From assembly GCA_000004985.1 (NCBI GenBank), contig GG738925.1: a stretch of 64,000 bases of DNA; one strand, 5' to 3'. A program made the translations under genes and the position numbers. The notes under the pieces are model-generated. The model did no database searches. It was not told where the DNA came from and saw nothing but the letters and a program-made list of their open reading frames with translations. The stretch is from Naegleria gruberi. Its lineage: Eukaryota. This document shows, in pieces, positions 1,933 to 64,000 of this stretch. Numbering within the stretch: the stretch's first letter is position 1; each line of letters begins with the position of its first letter.

Positions 1933-2071
1933 TTATTTCAGGATGCAACACAAAATGCTGAAACTTCCAGCAATTTCTGGTTTGGCGCCATAATTATGAA
2001 AGATGATGAAAATCTCACACGTCCTAACCATATCTTCACACAAAACAAAAAAACCACACAACAACCACACA

Positions 2072-2512
2072 ATGGCCACCAATTTTTTAACCATCACCAA
2101 GGAACAACTCCAAACTTCACCGAATGGCCGTGAATATTCAGCACAAGTTTCCGGAAGAGGCATTCCATTCCTCTTGAAAAAGGTTCATATTAACATTGAA
2201 TTGGAAAATGATGAAGATCCATCCATTGTTGATTCACTCCTCACTATTGCTAATGACATGTTACAAAAATTGGATGTGTATGCTGCCAAGGCCACTGAAG
2301 AATTGTACGAACTTTTCAATGATGAGTGGAATGAGGAAGGAGAAGAAGTTTCCAAGGAAGATTTTGCAAAGAGATTAAAGTTGGAATCTTTAATCGTCAA
2401 AAGTTCATCAAGATTGGTCTATTTTGATGATGGAGAACTTTTCTGTGGTCACGTTATTGAAGTCAATATTGATAATGAAGGAAATGTTGAAAGTGCTGAC
2501 ATTGCTGGATAA
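2072..2512 (+). CDS. hypothetical acidic protein (MATNFLTITKEQ..., ~146 aa)
   Basis: ORF 2003..2512. The true ATG is most likely at 2072 (cacaATGG context). The gene is divergent from the 349..1932 gene. Confidence 0.45.
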   Translation: MATNFLTITKEQLQTSPNGREYSAQVSGRGIPFLLKKVHINIELENDEDPSIVDSLLTIANDMLQKLDVYAAKATEELYELFNDEWNEEGEEVSKEDFAKRLKLESLIVKSSSRLVYFDDGELFCGHVIEVNIDNEGNVESADIAG

Positions 2513-14310: not shown

Positions 14311-17300
14311 ATGTCTGCAACATCAGCTGCCTCAACATCCGACAATACAAAGAAGAGAAAAACATCATTGATGATGGAAGCCTCGGAGGCTACTGAAATT
14401 TTTGAAAATGATCAGAATGAAAAGTTGATTGATGAAATTTCTGATGCGTTGCATAGATTGTCCCTCCAGAAGCAAACTGAAGAAATGATCAAGAAATTGG
14501 TCGAGCAAAAAGATCAAACAAGTGGTGAGAGTAAGAAATCATCCACTTTTGATAAACTTGCAATTCTTCAACAAATGCAACAGGAAGAGATGGTAGTGTT
14601 AAAAGTTGGTGGTATGTTGTGTGAAATTGTATTTTTAACAATCAATTTATTATGATGATTGACAGGTAAATTCTTTTATACAACAATGAAAACTTTGATG
14701 GGTGAAAGAGGTAACTCTAAAGTTCAAACAAAGAAAATTATTATTGCTGATAAAGTTGGTAAAGCAACTGCTGGTAAGAAGAGAGGTGAAGATGAAGAAG
14801 ATGAAGAAATGGATGAAGGTGGCGATGAAGAAGGTGGTGATGAAATGGATGAAGATGGTGAAAGACCAAAAGAAGACGGTATCTCATCACTTGAATATGT
14901 TTGTGCTCAAGATAACTTGTTTAAAGTCATGTTTGATTCTGGTTTTGGTATTGAAAGAGATGAAGCAAACAAGTCTGCAATTTCATTCCCTGACAGAAAT
15001 CCAGATTATTTCGAATATATTTTAGAACACTTAAGACAAGGTGGTAAAGTTAAATCTTTGGGTATTGAAAAGTTGAATGCTGACGAATTAGAAAATATTT
15101 TAGAAGAATCAAGATATTTTGCAACTGAAAAGTTATCAGAATATATCTTATTCTTACTTGACAAGTATCACAAATATGATTCAAATTTATCTAATTATGC
15201 TGAAATTGAAGAAATTTTGAATGATTCTGTACAAAATTTGAAAAAGGTTGAAATTCCACTCGAACAAATTCAACAAAGACTCAAATCATTTGAAGATTCA
15301 ATCAACGAATCCAAGAAGAGTGTTGGTGAATATTCACGCAAATTGGTTGAACAATATCAAAACTTTATTTTAGGTACTGATTTAGAAAGTGATTTATCTG
15401 TAAAGATTGATGTTTCAGGTCAAATTTTCACAATTCCATTCACAAGTTTGAGAAAGTATGAGAATTTCCTCCTTTCAAAATACATCTTATCACCAAACTT
15501 TGGTTTAAATGAAAATGGTTGTGTATTTATTGATAGAAATCCAAAGTTATTTGCCCTTATTCATGGTTACATTATCAGTGGTGGTAAATTTAATCATTTC
15601 CCAAAGAATCTTTCACAAGAAAAGAAACTTCAATTGAAACAAGAAGCTGAATTCTATGGTTTGACAACACTTGTTCAAGAATATCTTGATCCACTTCGTT
15701 ATCCAGTTGAAAAGATTGGTAAAGATAATATTGAATTGAAAGAAAAGGAAGATAAATTGAGAGAAATCTTTGCAAAGGAAAGAGAATCACCATTATTGAA
15801 TGATCCATATCTTTTATTATCACCCCTCTTCCAAAATTTAGAAGAAATTAAGAATCAAGAAAAGTATAGAATTGATATTGGTCACTGTCCAAAATTATTA
15901 GATTTAACAGATAAGACTAGATATTCTAGACAAGTTTCTAAACCAAGACTTGTTAATAATTTGAATGGTTTCAAATTGAATTGGCATAGATTCACTCAAG
16001 GTGCTTTGGATGGTCTTGATTGGAATAATGTTTTTGCTGCAGGTGGCGGTATTCTTGGTTGTTGTTTGAAAGATGATAATTTTGATAATAATACTGCAGT
16101 CTCAACAATTTATCCAACTTCTGTTAATGAAAGAACTGAAACAAATACTTCAAGAGCAGTATCAGTCATTGATGATGAAAATGATGAAAATGAAGCTGCT
16201 GATTTTGGTTTTTGGAGAAGATTTTCAAAGAAGGCAACAACTAAATCTACAGGTGAAGAAGGAGATGAAGAAGAGGAAGAAGAAACAGAACAAAAACAAG
16301 AAGTTATTAGCAAGTATCCAATTGGTAGATTCCACAATTTAGATTCTATGGGTAATTCTACTTTATACAGTCAATATAGCAGTCATTCCTATGCAAGTCT
16401 TGATCAAAGAAAGGCCCGTTCCTCTGAACTTGCTAAAACTATTTCTGAATCCACTACCTCAAACAAGGAAAATGCTCGTTTTATCCCTGATGCCAACATT
16501 CCTGCTCCATTTAAAAAATCAGATATCGATCTTTTCTTATATGCTTTGAGTGAAGAAGAAGCTGAAGAAAAGATTAAACATATTTATCAAACTATCAAGA
16601 AGAATATGAGTAGAAGATTATTAATGAATTATGCTGGAGATAAGATGGAACATAAGGGCTACTATTCTCATTTGAAGGATGAAGAGAAAGCTAAATGTAT
16701 TTATCAAGATGGTATTATTAGAACTGAAGAAGGTACTTTGATCAATGATGACGTTTTGGTTGTTAGAACTAAATTTGCTGTCACATTCTATTGTTACAAA
16801 CTCAGACCAATTCAAGTTGTTTTGAGAATTTACAAATCACCTGCAGAAGTTTTGTTAGGTTTTGATATTGATTGTGCAACTATGGGTTTTGATGGAAATC
16901 AAGTTTGGTCAAGTGCAAGAGCAAGAAGAGCTTTAATGTATCATACTAATCTTGTTGATGTTGATAGACAATCTACAACTTATGAATATAGATTGTACAA
17001 GTATAGTAAGAGAGGTTTCTCTGTTTCAATTCCAGGTTATGATACTGCTAAAGTTCAAAATCAATTGTTACAATATCCACGTAGATTCCCATTCACTTCA
17101 ACTGAATATTTGTTGCACGGTTTAGCAAGACTTATTGCTTTTGATAATTCTTGTCGTGCTAAGAATCCAAAACATATTTTAGGTGTTTATGATGATCGTG
17201 ATCCAAATGCAGCTCAATTAAGAGAAGAAAATAAGGCTCTCATCCTTTCTGGTGAATTGAATGTAAAGTCAGACTATCTTGATTTGAATATTATCAAATC

Positions 17301-18225
17301 ATATAAGTATCCTCCAAGCTTTATCTTTACTACTTTAGAAAAGACTCGTCAGATTGTATCACTTATTAATTTGAAACCTGAAGAACAAAGAGACATTAAG
17401 AATTGGCGTGATAGAGAAAAGATTAGAAGAACTTTCAGAAAAGGAGAAAGTGTTAAATTTGATAGTAGATTGAAAAATAATACTAATATCAAAATGGAAA
17501 GAGATCCAGATTGGAAACCTCACTTTATTTATTCTTTGAATGATATTGATACTGTTCTCAATAGTGAAAAGTTTGATGCAAGAATCTCCAACAAGATTCA
17601 ATTCCTTACCGTTGATCCAGGAACTCAGAAAATTGGTTCCTTCCATCCAAAGGATATTAACTTTTATAGAGATGCCTATCAACCAGTTCCATTCTCTAAA
17701 TTACCAATTTTGAAGGAAGCCAAGATGAGAACTGTTTGGTTCAAGGCAATGACTGAACTCCCTCCTCAACATGTTATCGACGAAAGAGAAAAACATGTTA
17801 AGGAAAATACAAACCAATACGGTTTTTATAATGATAATAAGGATTACACCAAGGATCCATTCGAAGAAAGATATCAAAAATTCTCAATGTCCAGACCAAA
17901 TCCAAATTCACAAAACATCTATGACAAGTGGGTTCAAGAAGAAATTTGGTTTGAAGCATTCACACCAGAAGAAAGCAACAAGATTGAACAAGAGTTTAGA
18001 AAGTTTATTGTTTATGGAAATCCTGAAAGCTTTGCAATTTCAGGATCTGAACTTATTGACTTCTCCTATTGGAGACTCTTCCTTGATAGTAACCATCCAA
18101 CTCATCCAAACACTGCTGCTGCCTTGCATAGAAAGAATTTCTGTGAATCTGGTCATTACTTTGGAGGAATTGATGAAGATCAAGTTGGTACTGTTACAAC
18201 CCTCTCTTACAGATCTTTCTATTAA
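14311..18225 (+). CDS. large protein with two BTB/T1 (KCTD-like) domains and a C-terminal region carrying a nucleotidyltransferase-like D-x-D signature. Exons: join(14311..14611,14666..18225), proposed.
   Basis: Two T1/BTB-like segments (ISSLEYVCAQDNLFKVMFDSGF...NPDYFEYILEHLRQG; SVKIDVSGQIFTIPFTSLRKYENFLLS...NPKLFALIHGYIISG). Acidic tracts. Downstream ...AAGGGILGCC... and ...KKSDIDLFLY... The upstream ORF 14311..14655 joins in frame through a 54-nt GTATGT...GACAG intron; that join is an inference. Confidence 0.55.
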
Positions 18226-18317: not shown

Positions 18318-18956
18318 TTAGTCTAAAATATGGAACACTTCAATTTCCTTAACCATAAAATCATCTCCGCTGAAATATCTCTGCTTCTTACCAGGTAATC
18401 TATTCTGAGGAAGAATGTGCAACTCAACATCCTCTTGACTCGATGAATATTTCACATCTGACTGATCAGAAATCCAAAAACAATAAGCATATGAAAGTAA
18501 CAATGTACTATCATAGGTAACAAGTGGACATTCTGCCTTATCCTCTTCTAAATGAAAGATATAACACTTGTCATTCTCTAATCTGAAAGTAAACGATTAA
18601 TCATCCCTTATAAGAATTCCCTTCTCAAAATCATCACAATTCGAAGCCAAATCTCTTGTAGCATAAAAACCAAATAAATCATCCTGGTCTGATTTGATGA
18701 TTGTAACAGTTTTCAATTTTCCATCACAATGTCTATGAAAATCAGCACTTCGGAAACCATCTCTAGTGGCTCTGAAAAGAAGCTTTGGCATTAACATTGT
18801 ACAATTATTTAATTCTGCAGACATGCGAAATAATTGTAAATATTGAGAATGAGTGATGATTTGACTATCTAGTTTTGTTTTTAAATGATCTTTCAAAAGG
18901 CTTGATTTAAAATTTGCGTCGAGAGAAAGGGAAACACTGCTGTCATTTAATTCCAT
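18318..18956 (-). pseudogene. TLDc-domain protein with an in-frame TAA (18597..18599) interrupting the domain
   Basis: TLDc motifs LLFRATRDGFRSADFHRHCDGKLKTVTIIKSDQDDLFGFY then, in the same frame after the TAA, SFTFRLENDKCYIFHLEE...YFSGDDFMVKEIEVFHIL. No usable splice signals flank the stop. Confidence 0.5.
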
Positions 18957-19252
18957 TTTTTTTTAAAATTCCAATTGTTGAACTACAGTCTTCACCACCC
19001 CTTGAGAGATACTAAAGAAATGAGATAAAAAATTAGTGTGAAATATGTGCGAAAAGCTAAAGAGAATCATTTCCAAAAATCCTTGCTTAAGGTACAACAA
19101 TTGGGATATATTAATAAATATGACTTCTCTAGTTTTTCACCACACTAATCGCTTTCATACCTACCTAATTCGTACTGTTAGCACAATATTCGGTTGATTA
19201 AATCACCTGTGCACTTTTCTAAAATATCATTAACTGGCTCCAAAAGTCAACA

Positions 19253-21355
19253 ATGAAAGAAATACCTATTTCAAACGACAGGATGTCACTTCAAAAAAAA
19301 ATGGTCAACAAGGTTTGCCTATTAATTCTGCTTGCTGTGTCTCTGTTGCTCTTTGCTTCAGTCACTTGTGAGAATATTGTCTATTCTACTACAACCTACA
19401 TGGATGGAACGCTCGTTCCTTCATTCGAAACTAATGTTGAAACTAACCTATTCAACTCTACCAATCCAAACTCCAGATCCCTCCAAGAAGATTGTACATT
19501 GTGTCCAGTTGGTGGTGATTGCACATGTGCAGGTACTTGTCCAGTTTCTTCATATGATTACAAGGACTTTTTCATCAAGACAACTTGTCCAAATGGTTTC
19601 TACTTGACTTCCTTGAGTCTTCAATGTAGAACAAGTGTTATTGGTGATTCAAAAGTTTTTATTCTTTCTCCAAGTGAATTTGATATTTACAAGGCAGATG
19701 ATACGAAACTTCCAGCTATTCGATTCAACACTAATAATTGTATTGATTATCGTTTTAACATTACAGAAGATCAAACTCTTGTTTACTATTGGTTAGATTT
19801 AAGACCTGCTGTGTATACAGCAAAGTGGTGGTTTAAATTTGTTGGAACTTGCAACAAAATTCAAGCTGGTCAACCTGTCAGAATGGATGTTCAGCCGTCA
19901 GTTGTTACCTTAACAAACACAACATTTTTTGACATTTCAACAACTCTATACGATAGAAACAATATCATCGCTGGTAATGCAGAAGGAGAAATGCGTCTTG
20001 TTGTTGATCCAGCTCAAAATCAAGGTTTCCAATTAACAAGTAGCTCACCAGTTTTGTGGGGAAACTCAACTTTTAAATTAATGAAATTCAAAACAGCTCT
20101 TCCACAAGTTGTGTACCAAGTGTTCTATACGAATGGTAACTATTCCATTAACGAAACAAGAACCATGAATATGACAGGAGATCAAGTTACATTCATTTGT
20201 AACATTCCAAAATATATGATTATTAATCAAGTAGTGAATGTTGATTTCGCTCTTGTGGATAGTCAAAATCAAGTAGTCCAATCTGTGAGTTCTAATTTTG
20301 CTAAACTTGGTTCTCCACAACTTGGTTCAGATTGCATGTATTATTTAACAACTGAAGGTATCTTTCGATATGTTTCACCAGCAGAAAGAGATATTCCATT
20401 AACAAGAGGAAGAGGCTCAATGACTTTGAGAGCTCCAATGACTGTAAGAAGTAATAGTTTTTACATTGATCTCTATTACATGCTACGTACGAAAACTTAT
20501 TTCACATTCGAAACAACTGGACCTCCATATGATGCACAAATCACTATTATTGATGGAGAGTTTGGAAGTGGAACAGATACTGCATTCTCAGTTTCAATTT
20601 ATGATGGAAAAATGGAATATAGTCCCTCACTTGTTAAGGCATGTTCAGATGTTGTGAAAATTGTTTCAGATCCTCCATTAGAAGGGTTTCCAGTGGAAAG
20701 TAAGGCAGTGGAGGGAGTTGCTTTGTTTAATACCATGTTAATTAGTGATCCTAGAAATATCAAGTTGCAAATACTTGTCAATAATCAAGCATTGACAAGT
20801 AAGAATGTTAGAGTTGGAGATAATGTCAAGTTAGCTCTTTCAGTTGACAAGTATTTGATATCACCAGGTGATTCATTCTATGGAAATATCTCAATTTATG
20901 ACATGTTTGATAACTTTTTAAACATGTCTACTGGAAATGCATTCCTTAACATTACCTATAATGGAAATCAATTCATGAAAATTAATTCCAAAGTTGTTAA
21001 TGGATTTTGCATGTTTTCACCAAGTTCAATTCCAAAAATTTACACTTCTCGAGTTTACATTCAAGCTGGATTCTACAGTCAATTCAACCAATTATTCCTA
21101 TCAGAAACATTTGAAATGCAAGTTTACAATTTGTCACCTTACCCTACTCCAAAACCAACCATTAGTCCAATGATGAGTAAAAAGGCAGAACACTCAAGTG
21201 GTGGTAATAATCCAACAAATCCATCTAAACCTTTGAATTCTGTTCAAATTCCAGCCATCAAATCCAATAATCAAAGAATTAACAATGCCAATTCTGTTAA
21301 CATTGGTTCTGTAATTCTTCTTGTGTTCTTCCTCTTTTTGATAAGCATGCATTAA
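19253..21355 (+). CDS. secreted or surface Cys-rich glycoprotein (hypothetical) with a C-terminal hydrophobic tail
   Basis: Signal peptide MVNKVCLLILLAVSLLLFASVTC, an N-terminal Cys cluster, many N-x-S/T sites and a terminal hydrophobic stretch IGSVILLVFFLFLISMH (GPI-like or TM). Confidence 0.55.
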   Translation: MKEIPISNDRMSLQKKMVNKVCLLILLAVSLLLFASVTCENIVYSTTTYMDGTLVPSFETNVETNLFNSTNPNSRSLQEDCTLCPVGGDCTCAGTCPVSSYDYKDFFIKTTCPNGFYLTSLSLQCRTSVIGDSKVFILSPSEFDIYKADDTKLPAIRFNTNNCIDYRFNITEDQTLVYYWLDLRPAVYTAKWWFKFVGTCNKIQAGQPVRMDVQPSVVTLTNTTFFDISTTLYDRNNIIAGNAEGEMRLVVDPAQNQGFQLTSSSPVLWGNSTFKLMKFKTALPQVVYQVFYTNGNYSINETRTMNMTGDQVTFICNIPKYMIINQVVNVDFALVDSQNQVVQSVSSNFAKLGSPQLGSDCMYYLTTEGIFRYVSPAERDIPLTRGRGSMTLRAPMTVRSNSFYIDLYYMLRTKTYFTFETTGPPYDAQITIIDGEFGSGTDTAFSVSIYDGKMEYSPSLVKACSDVVKIVSDPPLEGFPVESKAVEGVALFNTMLISDPRNIKLQILVNNQALTSKNVRVGDNVKLALSVDKYLISPGDSFYGNISIYDMFDNFLNMSTGNAFLNITYNGNQFMKINSKVVNGFCMFSPSSIPKIYTSRVYIQAGFYSQFNQLFLSETFEMQVYNLSPYPTPKPTISPMMSKKAEHSSGGNNPTNPSKPLNSVQIPAIKSNNQRINNANSVNIGSVILLVFFLFLISMH

Positions 21356-22976: not shown

Positions 22977-24935
22977 ATGCCGTGTGATACCAATAATGAC
23001 GCCTCTGACACCGTTGCCTCCGCACCAGCATCATTCATGTACGAAGAAATAACATGTAATGAGCTTCTACTGCTTCATTCATATAATTCACAAATTAAAA
23101 AGTGGATAAAAACTGACGCTCATGAAAATACTCATGAATTTTATATGGAACGGGAAGATTCCGATGATGATGATGATGATGAAGATGATGAAGATTATGT
23201 AGAGGATAATCAAGTTGATGATGAAGAAAAGGTTGATAATGAAAAGAATTTATTCGAAAGAAGAATGATATTTAATTCTGTGAGGGGTAGAACTACAGAA
23301 CTTGGATATTTGGATCCGTGTGATGATTATCACATCAGAGAATATAATGATGATTGGGGACGTGTGGAGGAAGTTGAGGAAATTAATATTGGACTATTTT
23401 ATAATCACCTTTCGAATGAAAATTTTGTAGAGGAGAGGGAAAAGTTTACCTATGAATGGAAAGATAACATTCTCTGTTTTAGAATAATGCCATATGATTT
23501 TGACTCTTTGGGAAAATATGACATGATGAAAGTTATTGGTGAGATTGAGAATGAAAATTATGCGAAACAATTTGTTGAGGAACAGATTGAATATACGAAA
23601 TCACCAGAAACAAAGGTCAATTATATGGAATTTGTGAATAATCATGCCATTGTTTCAGTATTTGATTATCTTGATACATGTTTCTTGTTGAAAACATGCT
23701 CAAAAGTTTCTTCGGAATGGCACAAAATGTTGTTTTACAATTCACATATTCAAAATCATATTTTCAAAGGTAGATTACTGGATTTATTCGATGGACAATT
23801 TGACCATTTGAGTCGCTTGAATGAGTTTTATAATTTGAATTGGTTGGAAACTTATCTGATGAGTGGTGCGTTCGTTTTTGAAATGTTTCAAGAGGGATTG
23901 TTAGGTCAATTGGAACACTTTGCTCATTTAAATGCAGTTGAAGTAGAGCAATTCTTTTACATTGTTCTCAAATTAGATCCTCTTCCTCATCTGGTTGATG
24001 ATTTGAAGGATGATCATCCACTGATTAATAGATTGAAACTCTTACCCCCAAAGAGAGTACTGTTCAGTGTTAATACTCTACCAGAGGTAAAGAGAATGGT
24101 ATTCAAAAGAGGATTTTTAACACATCTTTTGAGTGTGGAAGATAATTGTGATCCTGAAGTAGTGATGGAAAAAATTCTTATGGCCAAATGTGTAATTCCA
24201 ATTCAAGATTGCGAATTTTCAGTAGATTTCAAGAAGGGAATTTCTTTATATGACGAATTTTTGAAAGAACTTTCTTCAAAATTATTATCATTTAGAATAC
24301 CATCAAAAAAGACAGATTCAGAATTGGATTGGGCTGCCAATTGTCTCTGTGAAATGAGAGAAAAGGCTAGCTATTTCATTCACAATATTATTCCCGCCCA
24401 TCCATTTACCAAGCTTTGTGTGGATGATGATATTCTCATTGGACTCCATCTACTCTTACTCGATAACATTTATTCTAAAATTGACTTTCTAACAAACATT
24501 CCAATCCTCAACTTTTTGGAATTATTGGAAAATAGAAAGAGGAATGAATTGACCAATATCAAATCCCTCCTTCCTGAAAAATTCCAATCCAACCTATTTG
24601 AAATGATGTTACAAGAACCATCACCATATCAATTTACATCTGATTCTCTCACTCCATTTAATCAACCATCAAATTTATTAGAATTTTTAACAGAACATGT
24701 TATTGAACCGAGTGAAATTTATCAAGAAAATAGAAAATTCTCTGAATGGATTGATAGGGATATTGAGGAATATTTGAAATTCATTAAAACATTCCACACC
24801 AAGTCAATTACACCACCTAAACATGTTGACATGTTATTTCACTTTCACATGTTACATCCAAACAATTACATGCCAGATTGTTTGAGAATTGCAAGATCAA
24901 TCAAGAATCACAAATTTAACTTTATTAAAAATTAA
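22977..24935 (+). CDS. hypothetical protein with an acidic tract and an F-box-like segment
   Basis: 652-aa ORF, aaaaaaaaATG start, D/E run, F-box-like VSVFDYLDTCFLLKTCSKVSSEWHKMLF. Confidence 0.5.
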   Translation: MPCDTNNDASDTVASAPASFMYEEITCNELLLLHSYNSQIKKWIKTDAHENTHEFYMEREDSDDDDDDEDDEDYVEDNQVDDEEKVDNEKNLFERRMIFNSVRGRTTELGYLDPCDDYHIREYNDDWGRVEEVEEINIGLFYNHLSNENFVEEREKFTYEWKDNILCFRIMPYDFDSLGKYDMMKVIGEIENENYAKQFVEEQIEYTKSPETKVNYMEFVNNHAIVSVFDYLDTCFLLKTCSKVSSEWHKMLFYNSHIQNHIFKGRLLDLFDGQFDHLSRLNEFYNLNWLETYLMSGAFVFEMFQEGLLGQLEHFAHLNAVEVEQFFYIVLKLDPLPHLVDDLKDDHPLINRLKLLPPKRVLFSVNTLPEVKRMVFKRGFLTHLLSVEDNCDPEVVMEKILMAKCVIPIQDCEFSVDFKKGISLYDEFLKELSSKLLSFRIPSKKTDSELDWAANCLCEMREKASYFIHNIIPAHPFTKLCVDDDILIGLHLLLLDNIYSKIDFLTNIPILNFLELLENRKRNELTNIKSLLPEKFQSNLFEMMLQEPSPYQFTSDSLTPFNQPSNLLEFLTEHVIEPSEIYQENRKFSEWIDRDIEEYLKFIKTFHTKSITPPKHVDMLFHFHMLHPNNYMPDCLRIARSIKNHKFNFIKN

Positions 24936-39196: not shown

Positions 39197-39385
39197 ATGG
39201 AAGGATGTTGTGGAGGTGGAATATTTAAAGAAGATATTATTTTAAAGATGAAACAATTTGCTGCCTCGTCATCGGGATCGGAAAGTATGAGCATTATGGA
39301 TATGATGCATTTTGTAGCATCTGTTATTTTCCCAGTTCTATTATTTGTGTTTTGTTTGTACATTGTTTTAAAGAGAAAAGATTAA
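39197..39385 (+). CDS. possible small tail-anchored membrane protein (62 aa)
   Basis: aaaaaaATGG start, C-terminal TM VASVIFPVLLFVFCLYIVL. It sits in the gap between two minus-strand genes. A small ORF could be spurious. Confidence 0.3.
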   Translation: MEGCCGGGIFKEDIILKMKQFAASSSGSESMSIMDMMHFVASVIFPVLLFVFCLYIVLKRKD

Positions 39386-42151
39386 TTGGCCTTCTCAACA
39401 TCTTCTTGGATTCTTTTGTAGGCATTCATCCACTTAATTTCAGCAAATATATATCCAATTGTTTTGCTTGAAAGACCTAACCCTGCCCTAGTCAAGTTGG
39501 TGATGAGTGTGAGAGTACTACTATTGTGTGGATTATTAGCTTCTTTAACTTCCGATTCCTTGAATCTCTTTTTCCAAATATCCTTATTTGAGTTTGGATC
39601 AATTTCTAGCATAAATGGAACAAATTCTTCTAATTGTAGTCTATCTTTCTCGAATTTAACGAGAACTTTACTTTCTCCCATTTCTGTCCAATATTCTGTT
39701 ACATCTCTGAATGCAATAATGAAGAAAGTGTTCAATTTGGAAAGGAAATATTGATTGCTCTCAAAACAAACAGGATCGGCCATAATAATGTCATTAATAA
39801 GAGTTTCTCTTTCTTCTGTTGGAACTTCTTGATAGATAGATCCTAAAATTTCAATAACAGCTTCTCTCTTCAGAGGTGATTTGGAGTCCTTAGCATAATT
39901 GTTCCATTTTGCTCTTAATGCATGTAAGGCAAGTGAAACACTTGCACCGAATGCTGGATCATTAAGACCCTCCATAGATTTACAAAATTCCAGAATATCC
40001 TTAGCATTGTTAGTAAACTTGTTTGAATGGAATTAAATACTTACAGCGTACTTGGCTCTAAACTCTTCGCAAGCAGTCAAAAACTCAAAGCTGACCTTAT
40101 GTACAATCTCAGGTAATACAAACAATTGATCCAAAACATCATACAGCAGATAATCAATGCTTTTTACCTCCTTTTGAGGCTGTCTATAATCTTTGTAGTG
40201 TTGTACATATGTATCTAAAATAATCTCTCTCACTTCCTTTAAGGTCATCTTTCTTGTTGTCACATCTGTAATAATCTTATTTCCATATCTCGATTTATAA
40301 ACATCCCATATTTTGCTCATTGCTTGAGTATTTGGTGAAATACCAATTCTGCTTAGGGTTGGTTTGAGGAAAGTGAACTTCTCATCTTCTTCAAGAGGGT
40401 CTACAACTTCACATTCAAGAGGAAGAATAGGATCGAAATTAGGATTGTTAATGGCGTCCTGCATATTTGGATGGTTTTTGTAATAATGCAATTGAGAGTG
40501 AATAAGTTTCATATGAGTAACACCATGGGGTACTTCAACCACTTCTGGAGTGTACTGAGGTGTGATTGTTGAACGATGAGCAAGTTTGAATTTACCATCA
40601 CTTTTAGAAAAGAATACTTCTATTGAAGATCTCAAACTCAAAGCATCCAGGCCCATCATTGGTGAAGTTGTATCATTACTCACACAAAATGCAAGTTTTG
40701 GCTTTTTCTTTTGTTGATCTTCGGCTTTTGTTTTGATTCTAAGAGTGTTTTCGTCCAACTTATTCACTTTTTCGTGAATTATCATCATTTCATTATTCAG
40801 TAACTGAGCATCAGAAACAAATTCTGTCTTTATGGTCGATTTCTGTAAAATGGATTAGTTAGAATGGCCACACATTTCAACTTACATCTACTTGCTTAGC
40901 TTGATGGATTTCAAATGAGTAGTCTTCAATCCTTCTATTTTCAAGCATTTCCAATTGCTCGTGTAACTTTGTGAGTACTGATAGATCTTCTTGTATATCA
41001 TGCATATCTTTCTTATCTTTCATCTGGAAACGTTTCATTACAAAGTATCTCTTCTTCTTTGTTTCGTTGTCTTCCTTATAGGATCTTAAAAACTTAATTT
41101 CAGTTCTTAATTTAGTATTGTTCTTTTCAGTTTCGTCGAGTTTTGCTCTTAATTCCTTATAGGATTGCTCAGTACTCTTTTTAAGATTTGAACACTCCTC
41201 TTTCAGTTTCTCATGAGCTGCAGTAAGCTTTTTTAATTCTTCTCTACAGTCGCTGTGTACTCGTTTTTCATTAGACAATTCTTTTACAAGCTTTCCCTTT
41301 TCAAGCTCACTCTCTGAAATGAGTTCATAATCTGCTGCAGCTTTTTTCATTTCATCCAGCAGTCCAATATCTCTGTCGTTCACTACTAACGAATAAAAAG
41401 GTACTTTAAATCTATCATCCACCTCTGATTTAACAAATAGACATTCCTCAAATACTCTTCTTATGGAAGAAAATATATAAGCTTCACCTCCAATAGAATT
41501 ATTTTCCAATTCTTTCAATATTGAAAGACAGTAGTCTATTAAGGTTACACTTTTAAATCTATCTCTCGAATCCTCTGCTTTATCAATTAATTCCTTCAGT
41601 CCTACTTCCATCAGAATCAGAGATGATCTCCACTTTTTCATATTCCCAGCTACTAATAACTCTGCATCTTCATTTAATGTTGCTTTTGCATATTTTGGAT
41701 TTCTATCGGAATGGAGTGAACCATATCTTGGTCTTGCCTTCAGAGAAACATATTTATCCCTAAAAACATTCTTTTTAACAAGAGAATTTGTTGATGAAAT
41801 ATCGTGATCATCCGATATTGGGTGATCCACAAAATTTAAAGCAGAAATGGCTTTCCTTCCATACATTATTGATGAAACTTTGATGATCAAAAGTTTGGAT
41901 GAAAATTTTCGTAGTTTTTTTTGGAGGGAGTATTTATACTCTTTTAGTGTGTTGCCAGCGGACAGAGAGTCAGTTTTCCAGTAAAGTACAACCTTAAGAA
42001 CGGCATTAATTAACTTCGTTAAGTTAGTTAACTTGACTGTTAATACTAATATCAAAAATTTGTTATCATCATAATTAAACTCAACACGACATTGATTTCG
42101 TCCTTCTCGAAACTCTTCATTACAAATTACCACAAAAAAACACCAACACAC
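39382..42151 (-). CDS. large coiled-coil protein (hypothetical). Exons: complement(join(39382..39999,40045..40842,40886..42151)); start likely near 41866.
   Basis: Three ORF-track pieces join in frame through 43-nt (GTAAGT...TTTTACAG) and 45-nt (GTAAGT...TTTACTAACAATGCTAAG, TACTAAC branch) introns. There is a central coiled coil (ELEKGKLVKELSNEKRV...). The first ATG in the 5' ORF is MYGRKAIS. Confidence 0.55.
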
Positions 42152-55708: not shown

Positions 55709-56160
55709 ATGGAAGAACTTCACAAGCAAGCTATTGCTCAACTCTCTCTTCTCAAAATGGATGCAGATGATACCTATACTACAAAGGCTATTAGTGATGT
55801 AGCATGTCTTCAGGGAGTTGATTTGTCCAATGATGAAACATTGTTAGCCTTGATGCCAACTTTAATTAAAGAAATTGGTGGTGAATATTCGGAAATTAAT
55901 TGGGTAAAGAATGATCCAATTAGATTTAAAGATGAATTACAAAAGATTTATGGAACCACTGATTTGACTAAAATTGTTAAGGAATTTAGTTTTTCTGATG
56001 GTATGTAGTGAAAATTGTAAAAAAACATCTCAATATTAATGTATGATCAATAACAATAGGAATTAGAACATGGGGAGGTGGTTATTCTAGAGGATCATAT
56101 GTATTTATATTTGGAAAGGAATTAGTATTTGTTCATTCTACAATGTCATACACTGATTAA
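55709..56160 (+). CDS. small protein (~130 aa), two exons join(55709..56000,56060..56160)
   Basis: The 99-aa ORF ends in GTATGT. A 59-nt intron ending CAATAG joins an in-frame 33-codon exon (GIRTWGGGYSRGSYVFIFGKELVFVHSTMSYTD). Identity not recognised. Confidence 0.45.
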
Positions 56161-56290
56161 TACTCATCACAGTTAATCGATATTTGTTTTTTCTTAGAAG
56201 AAGGACTTTATAGCCTTGATTGGTCAATAGATTACAAAATCATGTATAATACTTAATGTTCAATAATAAAAACAGCAACAATAGAAAAAA

Positions 56291-57242
56291 ATGTTAATAG
56301 ATTACAAACAAGACAATGAAGGCTTTAAATTATCATCTTCGGAGGATATCAATTCAATATTAACAACATCACCTTCATCTACAACTACCACTAATACAAA
56401 TAATAATAATAATACAATTAATAATAATAGAATTGATTTTGCTAAACAATTTTCAATGAATGATTTCTTTGATAAAGAGAAGAGGCTTGAATTTTTAGAA
56501 TTAGCCTTTCATAGAGAGGGTTTATTTGCAACAAGTCATCGGATTGGATTAAATGAAAAATGTGGACTTACCTATGATGGTTAGTTTTTATATCAATATT
56601 GACTATTTGATGATGAATAATATTGTTTACAATGTATTTAATATTTAATAATATTTAATATAATATATTTAATAATAATATTTAAAAATAGGACATCAAA
56701 TTAATTTGGATAATTCATCAATACATGAACCACTTCATGATTTTTCATCACCTGCTAAAGAATCAATACATTTAAATATGATAACATTAGCCTTAGATGG
56801 TAATGAATTAGCTAGAAAATTCTTTTTATTACCTCTACTTTCTAAAAGTAATAATTTACTAAATATAGATAAATTGAATGAAAATGGAAAGAGACTATAT
56901 CAAGAAAATGAAAATATACTATTAATTGAATATTTAATTGATATTTTAGAAAAGAAATTTAAAAGTTATGAAGATTTTGATAGAAAATTTCCAGCCTTCG
57001 GATCAATGTTACCTTGGTTTAGAGTTAATGATGATGGTGCTGATAGAATGCCTGATTGGTTATTAAGAATTCCATCTTTAGATAATGGTCAATTTATATG
57101 GTCATTAATAGCACTTGAACATATTTTATTAAAAGTATTCAATAATAATAACAATACTACTACCAATAACAACAATACTACTAATAATAATACTACTAAT
57201 AATGGAAATTCTAATAATAGTATAATAATAATAATAATATAG
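56291..57242 (+). CDS. hypothetical protein with poly-N/T tracts, exons join(56291..56579,56692..57242)
   Basis: A 112-nt GTTAGT...AAAAATAG, AT-only intron joins two ORF-track pieces in frame (…LTYDG|HQINLDNSS…). The C-terminal N/T-rich tail is low complexity. Confidence 0.5.
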
Positions 57243-57307
57243 ATAATTGTAAATATTTTAAAAGTAGAGCAATTTCAATTGTAAAGAAAATTCAACAAAA
57301 AATTGAA

Positions 57308-58255
57308 ATGATTAAATCAACATCATTGATATTATTTTATCATGGTGATGGTAAAGTGAGAGCAATAAGTTATATTAAAGATATAAATGTAAATCCATTA
57401 TTAAATTATTCAAGAAATAATTATAAAGGAAATGGTAAATCATTTATTGATGATACCTATGAAGGTGAAATGATGGTCATGTTCATGTTATTATTTGGAA
57501 ATTGGAAAATATTGGGAATTGAAGTATCATCTAAATGTGAATGTGAAAAGATTTGGAAGTTTAAATCGAGGAGAATTAAAAAAGTAAATTACAAATCTAA
57601 AAATTATGGAGAAATAGCTGTTGAAGAGTGTTATTGGGCATCATCACATGAGAAATGGAAATATTTAATATTACCTTATATAGATTCTGATATAAATAGG
57701 AAAATATTTGAAAATGGAGAGAAGGTACGATTAATTAATTCAATAGAAAATTCAATTCCTGGTTTATTTGCAAGTGTTACAAAACCACATACTAAATATA
57801 ATCCAAAATATGCAAGTGAATGTGGAATACCTTCCATTTCAAGAGAGAAGGTAATTTATGAAAATATTGTAACTCCCTATGCATCATTTCCTACAATTTT
57901 AGCAAATTATGAAATTGGAATGATTTGGTATTGGAATATGTTAAATGCAAGTAGAATGCAAGGTATTTATGGAAGTACTGAATCAATTCACATAAATGGT
58001 AAAAAGATATGTCCTGTATTAACATGGGATTCAAAAATTACAACAATTGTAGCATTATGTGGAGGAATATTTAACTATACAAGAGAATATATGAAAAAAC
58101 ATAATGTTTACAATGAATTTATTCAATCAATAGATAGAGAATGGAGTAGAGTATTTTCATTAAATGATGAAGCAAGTCACATTTCATTTACTAATTTACT
58201 ACCTTCAAAATCAATACCTAAAATTAAACTTGAATTTGATTGGAAGAGTATTTAA
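57308..58255 (+). CDS. hypothetical protein (315 aa)
   Basis: ORF with aaaaaattgaaATG start and coding-like composition. Not recognised. Same strand as, and 65 nt downstream of, the previous gene. Confidence 0.5.
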   Translation: MIKSTSLILFYHGDGKVRAISYIKDINVNPLLNYSRNNYKGNGKSFIDDTYEGEMMVMFMLLFGNWKILGIEVSSKCECEKIWKFKSRRIKKVNYKSKNYGEIAVEECYWASSHEKWKYLILPYIDSDINRKIFENGEKVRLINSIENSIPGLFASVTKPHTKYNPKYASECGIPSISREKVIYENIVTPYASFPTILANYEIGMIWYWNMLNASRMQGIYGSTESIHINGKKICPVLTWDSKITTIVALCGGIFNYTREYMKKHNVYNEFIQSIDREWSRVFSLNDEASHISFTNLLPSKSIPKIKLEFDWKSI

Positions 58256-58306
58256 ATAAATAATTAATTTAATTTGAATTTATAATAATTTAATTTTTTA
58301 TTATTT

Positions 58307-61005
58307 TTAATTTTTAATAATTTTTAAAAATAAATTTTTTGCATATTTTGCAATAACATCTGGAACATCAATTGGTAAATCGTATGAACTTTCAATTAAA
58401 TCCCATTTAGCATTATAAAAAGAAGCCAAATCAGAATGTAATTTTTTAATAGCTTGTCCTCTACCTTCCTTCCACATGTTGAAATTATTACACATATTAC
58501 TACCCTCTGTAAAATGATTACTTTCACAATTACCATCTATTAAATTTTTAGCTGTTAAAATAATGGTTGGTATTTTCTTATATGATTCATCATCATCATC
58601 ATCGTCATCATTATTAACTAGAGTTGAATTGGATTGATTATTGATAATCATATTACCAGCAGTATTACCACCACTATTACCACTACTACTACTAGTAGTA
58701 TTATTATTTTGATTAATAGATGATTTAAATCTTAAATATTTAATTGATTCAGCAGTATCAGATTGAAAATGTTTTAATTCACTCCAAACACAACCAGTAT
58801 ACTTATTTTGAAAAATAACTTTTCTATTAATAGAAGTATTAGTTAAATTTAAAATATGATCAAAATAAGATTTCCATCCATTCATATAATATAATTCATA
58901 GGGATCTTCATATTCTAATAAAAATTCAAAATGAAAATATTTAAATAAACGTGGTAATGCAATTGGATTAACATATCTAATAACATCATCAATATAATCA
59001 CGTGTATCTTTTCTCAATTGAATATCATTATCTGTTAAATTTTTAACTTGTTTTAGTAAAATTAATTCTTGATCTTCATGTGATGGATGTAATAATATCA
59101 TTCCACTTAATAATTCTGGATATTCAGATGCTAATGCACGTGCTGTAAATGATGCACTTGAATGTGCAATATATAAAAATGGTGTTCTCATTCTACTTTC
59201 ATAAATGGTTGAAACAATTTCATTCAATGTATGATTACCATCACGTGGTAATGGTCCTGTATCACTAAATCCATATCCACCTCTCTCTAAAACACATGCT
59301 CTAATATTTTGTTTAGAGAGTGATCGTATCAGTGGTTTCATATATTCATAGGGTGATGGTATTCCAATATCTGCATCTAACAATGCAACATATGGACTTT
59401 TTAAATTACCCTCACAATACATGTGAATATTATATTGATGATGATCTATGGAAATGGAATATTTAATACCCGGTGGTTTTTCAATATCATTCACCAATGC
59501 TATAGCCTGTATGGTAAATAGTATCATCATGGTACCAATCATTGAAAAAGCCACCAATGAAATCAATTTTAAAAGCATTCCAATGGAGAAACACAGAAAA
59601 TTTCTAGCATTTAAATGAAAGAGTGAAATAATTTCACCATCAAAATCCATTGGTCTATCATTTTTAAAAACATTATACTGATTATAGGAAATTAAAATAA
59701 ATGATATTAATGGTACTAGACCATAACATGATATCCAACCTGCTAAATGATCTCTTGATTCTACAAATAAGGAATAACAAGTAAAATTAATTAAAAATAA
59801 AATTCCAAAAAATAAAAATACAACCATTCTATATACAAATATACTAAAATAAGAATCAATATTTACAATTTCTTTAGGTTTTTCTTTTTTTATCAATGTA
59901 TATATTCTTAATATAAAAACAGATGTAAATAATTCAAATATAATTACTAAAACAAGTAATAAATCTAATCCACTTATCCATAATAAGGTTGTTGGTGATC
60001 CATTTGTATAATAACCTGAATCATCTGATGAATTAACTGTTGATACTGTAAAAAATACAAATATAGATAATAAAAAAAATATTAATGAAAATATTGATGA
60101 TTTGTATAAAAAGGTTAATAATCTCTTTCTTAATTTCTTCTTTTCTTTTCCATCTCCTTTTTTAGGTTTTTCTAAATCAAAAAATACACTTTTTTAAAAT
60201 TATTAAATTAAAATTAATATTAAAAAATATTTAAATTATAATAAATATTAAAATATAAAATAAAAACTCACTTGCTTTCCATATTTTCATCATCACCTAC
60301 TAAATTAATAGATGGAAATAATTTAAAACTAGCCTTTTTAGTAATAGTATAACCAGGTGCAATAGCTGAAATAGAAGTTAAAGAAGCAGATTGTGTAATT
60401 TCACCAACTTTATGAGATCTAAAAAAGCTTCCATCAAAACTTTTCCTAGAAGATTGATTACTATCATCAAGTTTTCTAATATCAGATCTTCCTTCTCCCT
60501 TAACATTATATGAAGATGTAAATTGTTTTGAATAGTGAAATGTTTTTGATTGTTTTAGGCTTGGTTTTGTTATGAATTGAATAGGACTAGTAGAACCATT
60601 GGGTGAATGAATTAATCGTATATTATCATCATTAATACCACTACTATTATTACTATTATTATTATCATCATTGAAGGCTGAAATATTTACACCACTTTCA
60701 TCTATTGTTTTAGCTCCTATAATATCCATATCAGAACTATAGGATGAATGTGTTATTACTTTATGATTTTTTACATCTCCAAAATCACTTATAATTCCTC
60801 TCAGAGGTTCTTTACCATCATATTCATGAATAGGTGTTGGTGCTGATGGAAATTCATCATCATCATCATCAGAAAATGATACTCCATCATCATCCGATAA
60901 TGTATCTTGAAGTATGTGTTGATTAGAACCTCCTCCACTTTTATCAAAACGATCATATTGATTCTTCTTGTAGAGTGATGAAAATTTCTGTCGAAATGAT
61001 GGCAT
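58307..61005 (-). CDS. membrane-anchored alpha/beta-hydrolase-fold (lipase/esterase-like) protein with an S/D/N-rich N-terminal region. Exons: complement(join(58307..60188,60272..61005)).
   Basis: The downstream exon encodes ~5 TM helices, then a hydrolase-like region (…LYIAHSSASFTARALASEYPELLSGMILLHPSHED…), in a frame that stays open upstream to 60196 with no ATG. An 83-nt GTGAGT...AAAAAAG intron (100% A/T after the donor) joins it in phase to the ATG-initiated exon 60272..61005 (MPSFRQKF...). Confidence 0.6.
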
Positions 61006-61278
61006 TCAATATTCTATTGTTGTAATTGTTATTATTATTATGAAGATGAAGCTATTTTTTTTCTTCTTTCTGTTGTCTAATGATGCATTGTCCTTCTTCT
61101 ACTTTCGGGCTAATTAGAGTATCTCAAGTCGTACATTTAGGTATGTACCAAACAAGCCTTCAAAAAAATATCTGTACACTTATTAATAGATATTTTGGAG
61201 GGAAAACAAATGCTTTTGTTTCAAAGGCTGAAGAATGTTCACAAAACAAAGCCTTTTGTTGAATTCAAGTTTTAAAAA

Positions 61279-62238
61279 ATGTTTCTACCAAAACATCCAT
61301 CAAAGCCTTCAGTTACTTCCTCTTCTTCACTTGGAGTTGATCAACGACAAGGCTCTGTATCATCATCATCTTCAACAATTGTCTCACACCCTAAAAGGAG
61401 AATTACACCAACTCTTGTAGATCCCTCAACAGCTACAACAACTACCACATCGGGATTGACCACTCAACAACCAATAACATCATCGGAAGGATATTCTCAT
61501 AGTAATAGTAGTGGTAGTAGTAGTTTATTTAAAAATCTAAATGATGATGAAGAATCAATTAATAGTTCATCTGATGATGATGATTATGATGATTATAATG
61601 ATGAAGATGGACAATTAACAGATGGAGGAGAATATGAAGAATATGAAGAGGATAATGATGAAGAAATGATTCATAATATTAATGAATCCATTCAATTACA
61701 ACAACCTCCTTCATCAAAAAGAGTTAAAAGATCAACATCAACATCTTTATCATCTGGTCAAAAAAAACCAATCATAACCAGAATTATTGAAGAATATTCT
61801 GAAAATGAAATTCAACAAGATACTAACTTTTTAACAAATTATGATATATCAGCAATATTTTCATCATTATCATCTACTAAAAGAACCATATCATCTATTA
61901 ATTCTTCATCTATTAATAATTCTAATAATTCTAATAATTCTAATACATATTCATTCTATTATTTAAAAGATGATATAGTATTATATGAAATGAAAAATAG
62001 ATTACATTTTGGTAAATTAAATGAAACTGAAAAGTTTGAAAAGAAATTAACTAATGATATTATTAATAAATTAAATAATAGTATAGATTTAAATTTATAT
62101 CCACAAATAAGTAGAGGTGATATTAAAATTACACAAATTAAATTAAAAACAACGATTGAAATTATAACACCCATTGAAATTAATTGTTATTATTCATATA
62201 ATAATATTGAATATATTATTATTACAAAACGATTCTAA
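61279..62238 (+). CDS. S/N/D-rich hypothetical protein; 3' end runs into the assembly gap
   Basis: ORF with aaaaaATG start, poly-S, poly-D/E-Y and N-rich tracts. The ORF 62174..63223 spanning the N-run suggests the gene continues across the gap; the track reading frame across Ns is arbitrary. Confidence 0.4.
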   Translation: MFLPKHPSKPSVTSSSSLGVDQRQGSVSSSSSTIVSHPKRRITPTLVDPSTATTTTTSGLTTQQPITSSEGYSHSNSSGSSSLFKNLNDDEESINSSSDDDDYDDYNDEDGQLTDGGEYEEYEEDNDEEMIHNINESIQLQQPPSSKRVKRSTSTSLSSGQKKPIITRIIEEYSENEIQQDTNFLTNYDISAIFSSLSSTKRTISSINSSSINNSNNSNNSNTYSFYYLKDDIVLYEMKNRLHFGKLNETEKFEKKLTNDIINKLNNSIDLNLYPQISRGDIKITQIKLKTTIEIITPIEINCYYSYNNIEYIIITKRF

Positions 62239-62243
62239 TATAT

Positions 62244-62801
62244 NNNNNNNNNNNNNNNNNNNNNNNNNNNNNNNNNNNNNNNNNNNNNNNNNNNNNNNNN
62301 NNNNNNNNNNNNNNNNNNNNNNNNNNNNNNNNNNNNNNNNNNNNNNNNNNNNNNNNNNNNNNNNNNNNNNNNNNNNNNNNNNNNNNNNNNNNNNNNNNNN
62401 NNNNNNNNNNNNNNNNNNNNNNNNNNNNNNNNNNNNNNNNNNNNNNNNNNNNNNNNNNNNNNNNNNNNNNNNNNNNNNNNNNNNNNNNNNNNNNNNNNNN
62501 NNNNNNNNNNNNNNNNNNNNNNNNNNNNNNNNNNNNNNNNNNNNNNNNNNNNNNNNNNNNNNNNNNNNNNNNNNNNNNNNNNNNNNNNNNNNNNNNNNNN
62601 NNNNNNNNNNNNNNNNNNNNNNNNNNNNNNNNNNNNNNNNNNNNNNNNNNNNNNNNNNNNNNNNNNNNNNNNNNNNNNNNNNNNNNNNNNNNNNNNNNNN
62701 NNNNNNNNNNNNNNNNNNNNNNNNNNNNNNNNNNNNNNNNNNNNNNNNNNNNNNNNNNNNNNNNNNNNNNNNNNNNNNNNNNNNNNNNNNNNNNNNNNNN
62801 N
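62244..62801. other. assembly gap (558 N)
   Basis: Run of n characters. Confidence 1.
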
Positions 62802-63223
62802 TATTAACTTGTAAATATATTTATGTACATAATAATACATTTATTAAATATAGAAATAAATATTATGATATTATAAATGATAGAGATTTATTCATGGAAG
62901 ATGATGAAGATGATTCTGAATATTTTATTAAAATGGCAATTAGACAATTTTCAAATTATTATTTAATATGTACATTAACAAATAAGGGAATTGTTGATAT
63001 TTATAAATTTGATGATTCAATTAAACAAGAAAATGAAAAAATTTCATTAGAATTTAGATTTTCATTAAAAAAATTGAATTTTATAACTCAATATAAAAAT
63101 AATGAAAATAATTTTGAATGTGAATATTTAAATTTTATAAATTCACAAATAATAATTATTTGTTTAAAAAATGGTGATTTAATTAGATTTGAACCTATTT
63201 TATATTTTAATTATAATATTTAA
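62802..63223 (+). CDS. 3' coding fragment downstream of the gap (…KYIYVHNNTFIKYRNKYYDII…FEPILYFNYNI*), possibly the end of the 61279 gene
   Basis: Open frame from the gap edge to a TAA at 63221..63223. The frame relation across the gap is unknown. Confidence 0.3.
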
Positions 63224-63249
63224 TAAATAATATTCCAAATATAGTAATA

Positions 63250-63896: not shown

Positions 63897-64000
63897 TTTT
63901 TTATTAGTTTATTAATTTTAATTGATTTGAATATCATCTAATGCATTTGAATGAATAGCAATTAAAGGAAGCACTTCAATTTATAATAATATTCATATTG

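What the first reader, a model, noticed from the sequence alone, without database searches (positions are those of the whole stretch)
18318..18956. TLDc-domain gene interrupted by an in-frame TAA (pseudogene, recoding or sequence error)
The TLDc signature runs continuously in one frame on both sides of a TAA at 18597..18599: …DLASNCDDFEKGILIRDD*SFTFRLENDKCYIFHLEE…FMVKEIEVFHILD. The downstream half keeps intact TLDc C-terminal motifs. The gene therefore looks recently disabled, or the stop is a sequencing error or a read-through site. No GT…AG pair in the vicinity could remove it: the only candidate is 12 nt long.
Basis: seen in the sequence. Interest (0 to 1): 0.5.

Follow-up and report, generated by a model that had tools for sequence, protein, structure and literature searches.

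The report
Nonsense allele of a Naegleria TLDc gene
One copy of a small TLDc-domain gene in the Naegleria gruberi reference genome carries a single premature stop codon (GAA to TAA), while a second, about 97% identical copy on a small unplaced scaffold is intact, so this is an ordinary young null allele or pseudogene and not recoding.

Summary
On the minus strand, 18956..18318 is one 212-codon frame with a single in-frame TAA at 18599..18597 (codon 120). Pfam TLDc matches across the stop (E=1.8e-14). The window is the Naegleria gruberi NEG-M reference, on a 182,562-bp scaffold. The only close homolog among 5.8 billion proteins is N. gruberi XP_002668358.1 (NAEGRDRAFT_76729), on a separate 7,758-bp scaffold. 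It is 155/159 identical and has Glu exactly where the window has TAA, which fits one G-to-T change. That small scaffold also carries a 97%-identical partial copy of the window gene at 22977, so it is most likely the second haplotype of this locus. No credible intron encloses the stop. The truncated product would keep 4 of 11 beta-strands of the TLDc fold, and the downstream half has no usable ATG. The best reading is a recent, probably heterozygous, nonsense allele that was left unannotated on the main scaffold. A consensus base error cannot be excluded without reads. Nothing supports recoding. The finding is ordinary and of low interest.

The parts
18318..18956 (-). Complete TLDc-only gene frame: ATG at 18956..18954, 212 sense codons, terminal TAA at 18320..18318. 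Interrupted once.
   Evidence: The ATG at 18956 is the first in the open frame; an in-frame stop lies 2 codons upstream (span 18318..18962). Residues 1-53 are homologous to the N-termini of P0015 and P0018.
18597..18599 (-). Premature TAA at codon 120. It corresponds to Glu67 of XP_002668358.1 (P0001) and is one residue before the near-invariant SFxF motif.
18600..18956 (-). Upstream ORF of 119 codons, the only product expected from this copy. It covers TLDc profile positions 4-82 of 170.
   Evidence: In the model, 4 of 11 strands lie before the stop.
18321..18596 (-). Downstream 92 codons, still open and 89/92 identical to the intact copy. They encode the remaining 7 beta-strands, including the invariant NFxVKEIEVF end. 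The only in-frame ATG is 12 codons from the end.
22977..23537 (+). 5' part of the neighbouring 652-aa gene (EFC36799.1). Its 97%-identical partial twin (EFC35615.1) sits on the same 7,758-bp scaffold as the intact TLDc copy. This is the colinearity marker.

Best explanation
This is a genuine, recent G-to-T nonsense substitution (GAA Glu to TAA) at codon 120 of a small, lineage-specific, single-domain TLDc gene of Naegleria gruberi NEG-M. The reference 182-kb scaffold carries the disabled copy. A 7.76-kb unplaced scaffold carries the intact copy (NAEGRDRAFT_76729) and is most likely the other haplotype of this heterozygous diploid, assembled separately because the two haplotypes differ by a few percent here. 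Translation of the window copy ends after 119 residues. That fragment has 4 of the 11 beta-strands of the TLDc sandwich and lacks the invariant C-terminal strand, so it cannot fold as a TLDc domain (inferred). The downstream half cannot be made on its own. The copy is therefore a null allele, or young pseudogene, sheltered by the intact copy. What is shown: the stop, the frame continuity, TLDc membership, the existence and sequence of the intact twin, the twin of the neighbouring gene, and the absence of intron signals. What is inferred: that the two scaffolds are alleles rather than a recent duplication, that the base call is correct, and that the fragment is non-functional.
For: The window is N. 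gruberi NEG-M: six window ORFs match NCBI N. gruberi proteins exactly, all on a 182,562-bp contig. The only close homolog in 5.8 billion proteins is P0001 (EFC35614.1 / XP_002668358.1) on a 7,758-bp contig. It is 155/159 identical with no gaps and has E opposite the stop. The other three differences (I/T, G/E, M/L) all lie downstream of the stop. P0015 and P0104 also have Glu at that column. The same 7,758-bp contig carries EFC35615.1, which is 182/188 identical to the start of the window gene at 22977, with 2 substitutions and 2 short indels. The accession numbers of the two genes are consecutive. The window copy has no gene model on record. Intron excluded: no GTAAGT-type donor lies upstream of the stop and there is no ACTAAC branch site. 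The 60-nt in-frame GT..AG creates a TAG at the junction. The shortest viable candidate (93 nt) would delete 31 conserved codons that are colinear with P0001 and P0015. A real local intron shows GTAAGT..TACTAAC..AG. Youth of the lesion: the downstream 92 codons are still open (chance 4.9e-4) with a coding-like GC pattern. Loss of function: the AF2 model of the intact copy has pLDDT 86.7 and places strands 5-11 after residue 67. The fold is TLDc, with the top 16 PDB hits all TLDc domains at TM up to 0.74. The literature describes Naegleria as mainly a heterozygous diploid (PMC9928731). No syntenic ortholog exists at the N. fowleri or N. lovaniensis BTB loci, which fits a dispensable, lineage-specific gene.
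Against: No reads or quality values were available, so the base call is unverified. The DNA of the 7,758-bp scaffold could not be retrieved. As a result, synonymous divergence, exact colinearity and the G-to-T change itself are inferred from protein sequences only. My prediction that a partial BTB model from the small scaffold would be found was not met, so the extent of that scaffold on the 3' side of the TLDc gene is unknown. The 'intact' model P0001 starts at Met54 of the full frame and lacks the first ~24 residues of the Pfam domain. The second copy could therefore be damaged upstream or simply mis-modelled. There is no expression evidence for either copy.
Confidence: 0.72

Rival explanations
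1. Consensus base-call error: the true base at 18599 (minus strand) is G, both haplotypes encode Glu, and the gene is intact.
For: This is a draft Sanger-era scaffold with N gaps. If the haplotypes were assembled separately, each has about half the coverage (inference). A single base explains everything, and 5.9% of all point changes in this gene would create a stop. The rest of the frame is perfectly intact.
Against: The two copies differ at three other amino-acid positions within 159 codons, and the neighbouring gene differs by 2 substitutions and 2 indels. Real variation at about the percent level is therefore present, and that is far more frequent than typical consensus error (inference from general knowledge of Sanger consensus accuracy). 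No other unexplained in-frame stop occurs in the 64-kb window, which argues against poor local consensus quality.
Confidence: 0.13
2. The stop is real, but the 7,758-bp scaffold is a recent segmental duplicate (paralog) and not the allele. The window copy is then a duplicated pseudogene and may be homozygous.
For: The BTB neighbour has an 83%-identical paralog on the same scaffold, so duplications do occur here. No BTB fragment from the small scaffold was found. Allelism is inferred only from two colinear genes.
Against: The 97-99% identity is much higher than the 83% of the known paralog. Two consecutive genes keep their order and a spacing compatible with a 7.76-kb piece. Small unplaced scaffolds that duplicate part of a large one are the usual signature of uncollapsed haplotypes in a heterozygous diploid (general knowledge; PMC9928731).
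Confidence: 0.12
3. Programmed stop-codon read-through or recoding: TAA at codon 120 is decoded and a full-length TLDc protein is made.
For: The downstream half is fully intact. By coincidence the aligned residue is Glu, the amino acid assigned to UAR in Blastocrithidia nonstop (abstract of PMC12153298).
Against: TAA is the standard terminator in the window, ending 21 of 28 long ORFs, and it also terminates this same gene. There is no other unexplained in-frame stop in 64 kb. No tRNA gene, suppressor or otherwise, is in the window. The context TAA-TCG is not a known leaky motif (own knowledge). No paper held in the library reports recoding in Naegleria. A one-step GAA-to-TAA mutation explains the Glu coincidence.
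Confidence: 0.02
4. The stop lies in an unrecognised intron that is spliced out.
For: Ninety-three in-frame GT..AG pairs enclosing the stop restore an open frame. In-frame introns containing stops do exist nearby, for example 40044..40000.
Against: There are no GTAAGT-type donor or ACTAAC branch signals upstream of the stop. The shortest viable candidate removes 31 conserved codons, including near-invariant F95/G96 and F122/F124. The intact copy and the paralog are colinear through the site without any gap.
Confidence: 0.01

Closest known systems
NAEGRDRAFT_76729 (XP_002668358.1 / EFC35614.1), predicted protein of N. gruberi on a 7,758-bp scaffold
   Same: 155/159 identical with no gaps. It is the same gene, flanked by a twin of the same neighbouring gene.
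   Different: It has Glu where the window has TAA, plus three further substitutions (T/I, E/G, L/M). Its model starts at Met54 of the full 212-codon frame.
NAEGRDRAFT_73082 (XP_002671881.1, P0015), 222-aa single-domain TLDc paralog of N. gruberi
   Same: Same architecture: a ~60-residue N-terminal extension plus a TLDc domain, with homology over the full length including residues 1-53. Glu at the stop column. Pfam TLD E=4e-20.
   Different: Only ~38-43% identical, on a different scaffold (305,921 bp), and uninterrupted.
TLDc domains with solved structures: Skywalker/TBC1D24 (6r82), NCOA7 (7obp, 8ar6, 7uzg), mEAK-7 (7une, 7u4t), zebrafish OXR2 (4acj), yeast Oxr1 (7fde)
   Same: Same fold for the intact copy (Foldseek prob 1.00, TM 0.70-0.74) and a significant profile match. 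These proteins bind the V-ATPase (PMC8608904, PMC9263379), which is the likely ancestral role.
   Different: 12-17% sequence identity. The Naegleria protein is a stand-alone domain without TBC, LysM or other partner domains. V-ATPase binding was not tested here.
Heterozygous loss-of-function (nonsense) alleles and unitary young pseudogenes in diploid genomes
   Same: A single premature stop in an otherwise intact frame, with an intact second copy in the same genome.
   Different: Nothing unusual. Allelism is inferred and has not been shown.

Membership tests
TLDc domain family (Pfam PF07534) | Significant match to the TLD profile over most of its length | tested here: met
   The joined frame scores E=1.8e-14 and 54.5 bits (cut-off 24.5), covering profile positions 4-169 of 170 across the stop.
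TLDc domain family (Pfam PF07534) | TLDc beta-sandwich fold | tested here: met
   The AF2 model of the intact twin has pLDDT 86.7 and pTM 0.84. The top 16 PDB matches are all TLDc domains, with TM up to 0.74. This was tested on P0001, not on the interrupted copy.
TLDc domain family (Pfam PF07534) | Conserved family residues on both sides of the stop (LLYRATRDGF..FH..CD, FGG, SFxF, NFxVKEIEVF) | tested here: met
   Alignments A1 and A2: the invariant and near-invariant columns L59, D66, F68, F73, C77, G96, F122, F124, F200 and E206 are all present in the window frame.
TLDc domain family (Pfam PF07534) | Interaction with the V-ATPase | not testable with these tools
   Known for the mammalian and yeast members (PMC8608904, PMC9263379). 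There are no data for Naegleria.
Pseudogene / null allele | Disabling lesion in a frame that is intact in a close relative | tested here: met
   TAA opposite Glu67 of P0001, with 155/159 identity and no gaps.
Pseudogene / null allele | The lesion is not removed by splicing | tested here: met
   There is no donor or branch signal, and every in-frame GT..AG option deletes at least 31 conserved codons or creates a stop. No RNA data were available.
Pseudogene / null allele | The lesion is real in the DNA (not a base-call error) | not testable with these tools
   No reads or quality values were available. Only an indirect argument from the neighbouring divergence can be made.
Allelic haplotype pair (main scaffold versus small scaffold) | Colinear gene content at high identity on both sides of the gene | tested here: inconclusive
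   The 5' side is met: the twin of the 652-aa gene is 97% identical. On the 3' side, no BTB fragment from the small scaffold is on record. The scaffold DNA was not retrievable.
Programmed read-through / stop-codon reassignment | Recurrent in-frame stops in conserved genes, or a known read-through context | tested here: not met
   This is the only unexplained in-frame stop in 64 kb. TAA is the main terminator, and there is no known leaky context.

The most novel reading that the evidence does not exclude
The TAA is decoded at a useful level (programmed read-through or near-cognate decoding), so the main-scaffold copy still yields a full-length TLDc protein. This would be the first recoding event reported in a heterolobosean nuclear gene.
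Probability: 0.02. Interest if true: 0.55.

Novelty: new member of a known kind. Interest (0 to 1): 0.1.

Why it matters
It matters mainly for annotation. The N. gruberi reference carries the disabled copy of this TLDc gene on its main scaffold, where it has no gene model. The intact copy sits on a small unplaced scaffold, and its model appears N-terminally short, starting at Met54 of a 212-codon frame. Anyone counting TLDc genes, mapping reads or designing knock-outs in NEG-M should know that the two scaffolds probably represent one heterozygous locus with one null allele. Beyond that, it is one small example of a sheltered loss-of-function allele in a mostly clonal, heterozygous diploid amoeba. 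It does not bear on the genetic code or on TLDc biology.

Tried and rejected
1. Alternative genetic code or a ciliate-like origin was my first thought for an AT-rich eukaryote. I rejected it because the window is N. gruberi, its long ORFs are uninterrupted, and TAA is the main terminator.
2. Intron. An exhaustive GT..AG scan and a donor/branch motif search found nothing credible.
3. A general excess of in-frame stops. Only three candidates exist in the window. One is a 45-nt intron at 40044..40000 and one is a chance antisense frame at 1933.
4. Retrieving the DNA of the 7,758-bp scaffold or the deposited gene calls failed. The N. gruberi assembly is not in the gene-position index, so dN/dS and DNA-level colinearity could not be computed.
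5. I predicted a partial BTB model on the small scaffold. None was found, so this test is inconclusive.
6. Syntenic orthologs. The N. fowleri and N. lovaniensis loci around the BTB ortholog contain no TLDc gene and none of the window's 18-25 kb genes, so the mutation could not be polarised with an ortholog.
7. The Fritz-Laylin 2010 and 2011 genome papers are not held in the library. Heterozygous diploidy is therefore cited second-hand from PMC9928731.
8. A suppressor tRNA in the window. There are no tRNA genes at all.

Full report
**1. What is there.** The finding lies on the minus strand. Translating 18956..18318 gives one frame of 212 sense codons with a single internal TAA at 18599..18597 (codon 120, context GAT GAT TAA TCG) and a terminal TAA at 18320..18318. 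The ATG at 18956 is the first in the open frame, and an in-frame stop lies two codons upstream. Pfam TLDc (PF07534) matches the joined protein over residues 30-210, against profile positions 4-169 of 170, with E=1.8e-14. The N-terminal 119 residues alone score E=8.8e-11. The C-terminal 92 residues alone fall below threshold.

**2. Is it more than chance?** At the window's base composition, 92 codons stay open with probability 4.9e-4. Both halves show the codon-position GC pattern of confirmed genes in the window. A paralog (P0015) aligns in one tblastn HSP from 18959 to 18327, straight across the stop. Only three stops in the 64-kb window separate two open stretches of at least 80 codons. The one at 40033 lies in a textbook 45-nt intron (GTAAGT...TACTAAC...AG, 40044..40000). 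The one at 1933 is a chance frame antisense to the ORF at 2003..2512. The TLDc stop is the only unexplained one.

**3. Source of the window.** Six clean ORFs of the window are exact matches to NCBI Naegleria gruberi proteins (EFC36793, 36799, 36801, 36803, 36804, 36839). All are on one 182,562-bp contig. The window is therefore part of the NEG-M reference assembly, which is AT-rich (about 32% GC) and contains an N gap.

**4. The key comparison.** A search of 5.8 billion proteins with the joined sequence returned a single hit, P0001 = EFC35614.1 / XP_002668358.1 (NAEGRDRAFT_76729). It is 159 aa long and sits on a different contig of 7,758 bp.
- It is 155/159 identical to the window frame with no gaps, and it has Glu opposite the TAA.
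- The other three differences (T/I, E/G, L/M) all lie downstream of the stop.
- GAA to TAA is a single G-to-T change. This is inferred, because the DNA of that scaffold was not retrievable.
- The paralog P0015 and a more distant relative, P0104, also have Glu at that column.
- The window copy itself has no gene model in the collection.

**5. Allele or paralog?** The same 7,758-bp contig carries the protein with the next accession, EFC35615.1 (185 aa, partial). It is 182/188 identical to the start of the window gene at 22977, with two substitutions and two short indels. Two consecutive genes on the small scaffold thus map to window 18.3-18.8 kb and 22.98-23.54 kb, a span of 5.2 kb that fits within 7.76 kb.
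- This is the usual signature of an uncollapsed second haplotype. Naegleria is described as mainly a heterozygous diploid (PMC9928731). The original genome papers were not available to me.
- I predicted that the small scaffold would also carry a partial copy of the BTB gene lying 3' of the TLDc gene. No such model is on record, so colinearity on that side is untested.
- A recent segmental duplication remains possible, since the BTB gene has an 83%-identical paralog on the same big scaffold. However, 97-99% identity is much higher than that.

**6. Not an intron.**
- Ninety-three in-frame GT..AG pairs that enclose the stop would restore an open frame. The 60-nt pair (18637..18578) creates a TAG at the junction. 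The shortest viable pair (93 nt, 18670..18578) deletes 31 codons, including the near-invariant F95/G96 and F122/F124.
- There is no GTAAGT-type donor upstream of the stop and no ACTAAC branch site, in contrast to the real intron at 40 kb.
- P0001 and P0015 are colinear through the site.

**7. Not recoding.** TAA terminates 21 of 28 long ORFs in the window and also terminates this gene. No other unexplained in-frame stop exists. No tRNA gene is present in the window. No paper held in the library reports read-through or reassignment in Naegleria. The alignment of the stop with Glu is explained by a one-step mutation.

**8. Consequence for the protein.** The deep search found 1,676 relatives. The closest single-domain ones (P0015, an N. 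gruberi paralog, and P0018, from ENA) are 222-224 aa long and share the N-terminal 53 residues of the window frame. The true gene is therefore the 212-codon frame, and the deposited 159-aa model is N-terminally short.
- An AlphaFold model of the intact copy (pLDDT 86.7, pTM 0.84) is a TLDc fold. The top 16 PDB matches are all TLDc domains (Skywalker/TBC1D24, NCOA7, mEAK-7, OXR2, Oxr1, Rtc5p), with TM up to 0.74 (sequence-profile hits).
- The stop corresponds to residue 67 of that model. Four strands and two helices precede it. Seven strands follow it, including the invariant C-terminal NFxVKEIEVF strand.
- The only in-frame ATG downstream is 12 codons from the end, so the C-terminal half cannot be expressed separately.
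- The window copy should therefore yield only a 119-residue fragment that cannot form the domain. This is an inference.

**9. Age and context.** The downstream half has no further stops or frameshifts and differs from the intact copy at 3 of 92 residues, so the lesion is young. The gene has no syntenic counterpart at the N. fowleri or N. lovaniensis BTB-ortholog loci. Its nearest relative in the 1.84-billion-protein library, apart from its twin, is only 43-54% identical. It is a lineage-specific member of a large family and is plausibly dispensable.

**10. Error versus real.** Without reads this cannot be settled.
- For a real variant: the two copies differ at other positions here and in the neighbouring gene, so percent-level real variation is present, and the window shows no other sign of poor consensus quality.
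- For an error: 5.9% of point changes in this gene create a stop, and separately assembled haplotypes have reduced coverage.
- I put about 0.84 on a real nonsense change (0.72 allele, 0.12 paralog), 0.13 on a base-call error, 0.02 on read-through and 0.01 on an intron.

**11. Verdict.** This is an ordinary, recently disabled copy, most likely one allele, of a TLDc-only gene. It is unannotated on the main scaffold, and its intact twin is annotated on a small unplaced scaffold. It has low interest beyond annotation hygiene.

Noticed in passing
window 19253..21355 (+): A 700-codon ATG-started ORF with a signal-peptide-like N-terminus and a hydrophobic C-terminal tail. It has no Pfam hit and no homolog at E<=1e-10 among 5.8 billion proteins, not even an N. 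gruberi gene model. It is apparently an unannotated orphan surface or secreted protein gene, sharing a 296-bp divergent upstream region with the TLDc gene.
   Followed up: partly
window 40000..40044 (-): A 45-nt in-frame spliceosomal intron containing a TAA (GTAAGT...TACTAAC...AG). It joins ORFs 40033..40788 and 39382..39975. I used it as the local template for real intron signals.
   Followed up: yes
7,758-bp N. gruberi scaffold (EFC35614.1), corresponding to window 18797..18956: The deposited model of the intact TLDc copy starts at Met54 of the 212-codon frame and lacks about 24 residues of the Pfam domain, as well as the N-terminal region shared with the paralogs. Either the model is too short or that copy is interrupted upstream. 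If it is interrupted, both copies would be damaged.
   Followed up: partly
window 14311..18222 (+): The BTB_2 + PF26128 (Gad2) gene NAEGRDRAFT_82124 (1286 aa) has an 83%-identical paralog (P0172) elsewhere on the same 182-kb scaffold, and orthologs in N. fowleri and N. lovaniensis. In those species the downstream neighbour is an Rrn7-like gene, so the window block at 18-25 kb is not syntenic.
   Followed up: partly
window ~56000..64000: GC content drops from about 0.32 to about 0.25, and there is a 578-N gap at 62245..62822. ORFs there are mostly without Pfam hits, apart from an alpha/beta hydrolase at 58310..59896. I did not examine whether this is a natural AT-rich region or a scaffolding join.
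   Followed up: no
window 1933..1935 (-): A TAA between 83 and 527 open codons. The upstream stretch is antisense to the ORF at 2003..2512 and shows no coding continuity, so it looks like a chance event.
   Followed up: yes
clusters of window genes at 4728, 28837 and 33428: Proteins at least 90% identical to these N. gruberi genes occur on short ENA and Logan contigs (P0003-5, P0009, P0013). Other N. gruberi-like genomes or transcriptomes therefore exist in public data. None contains the TLDc gene.
   Followed up: no
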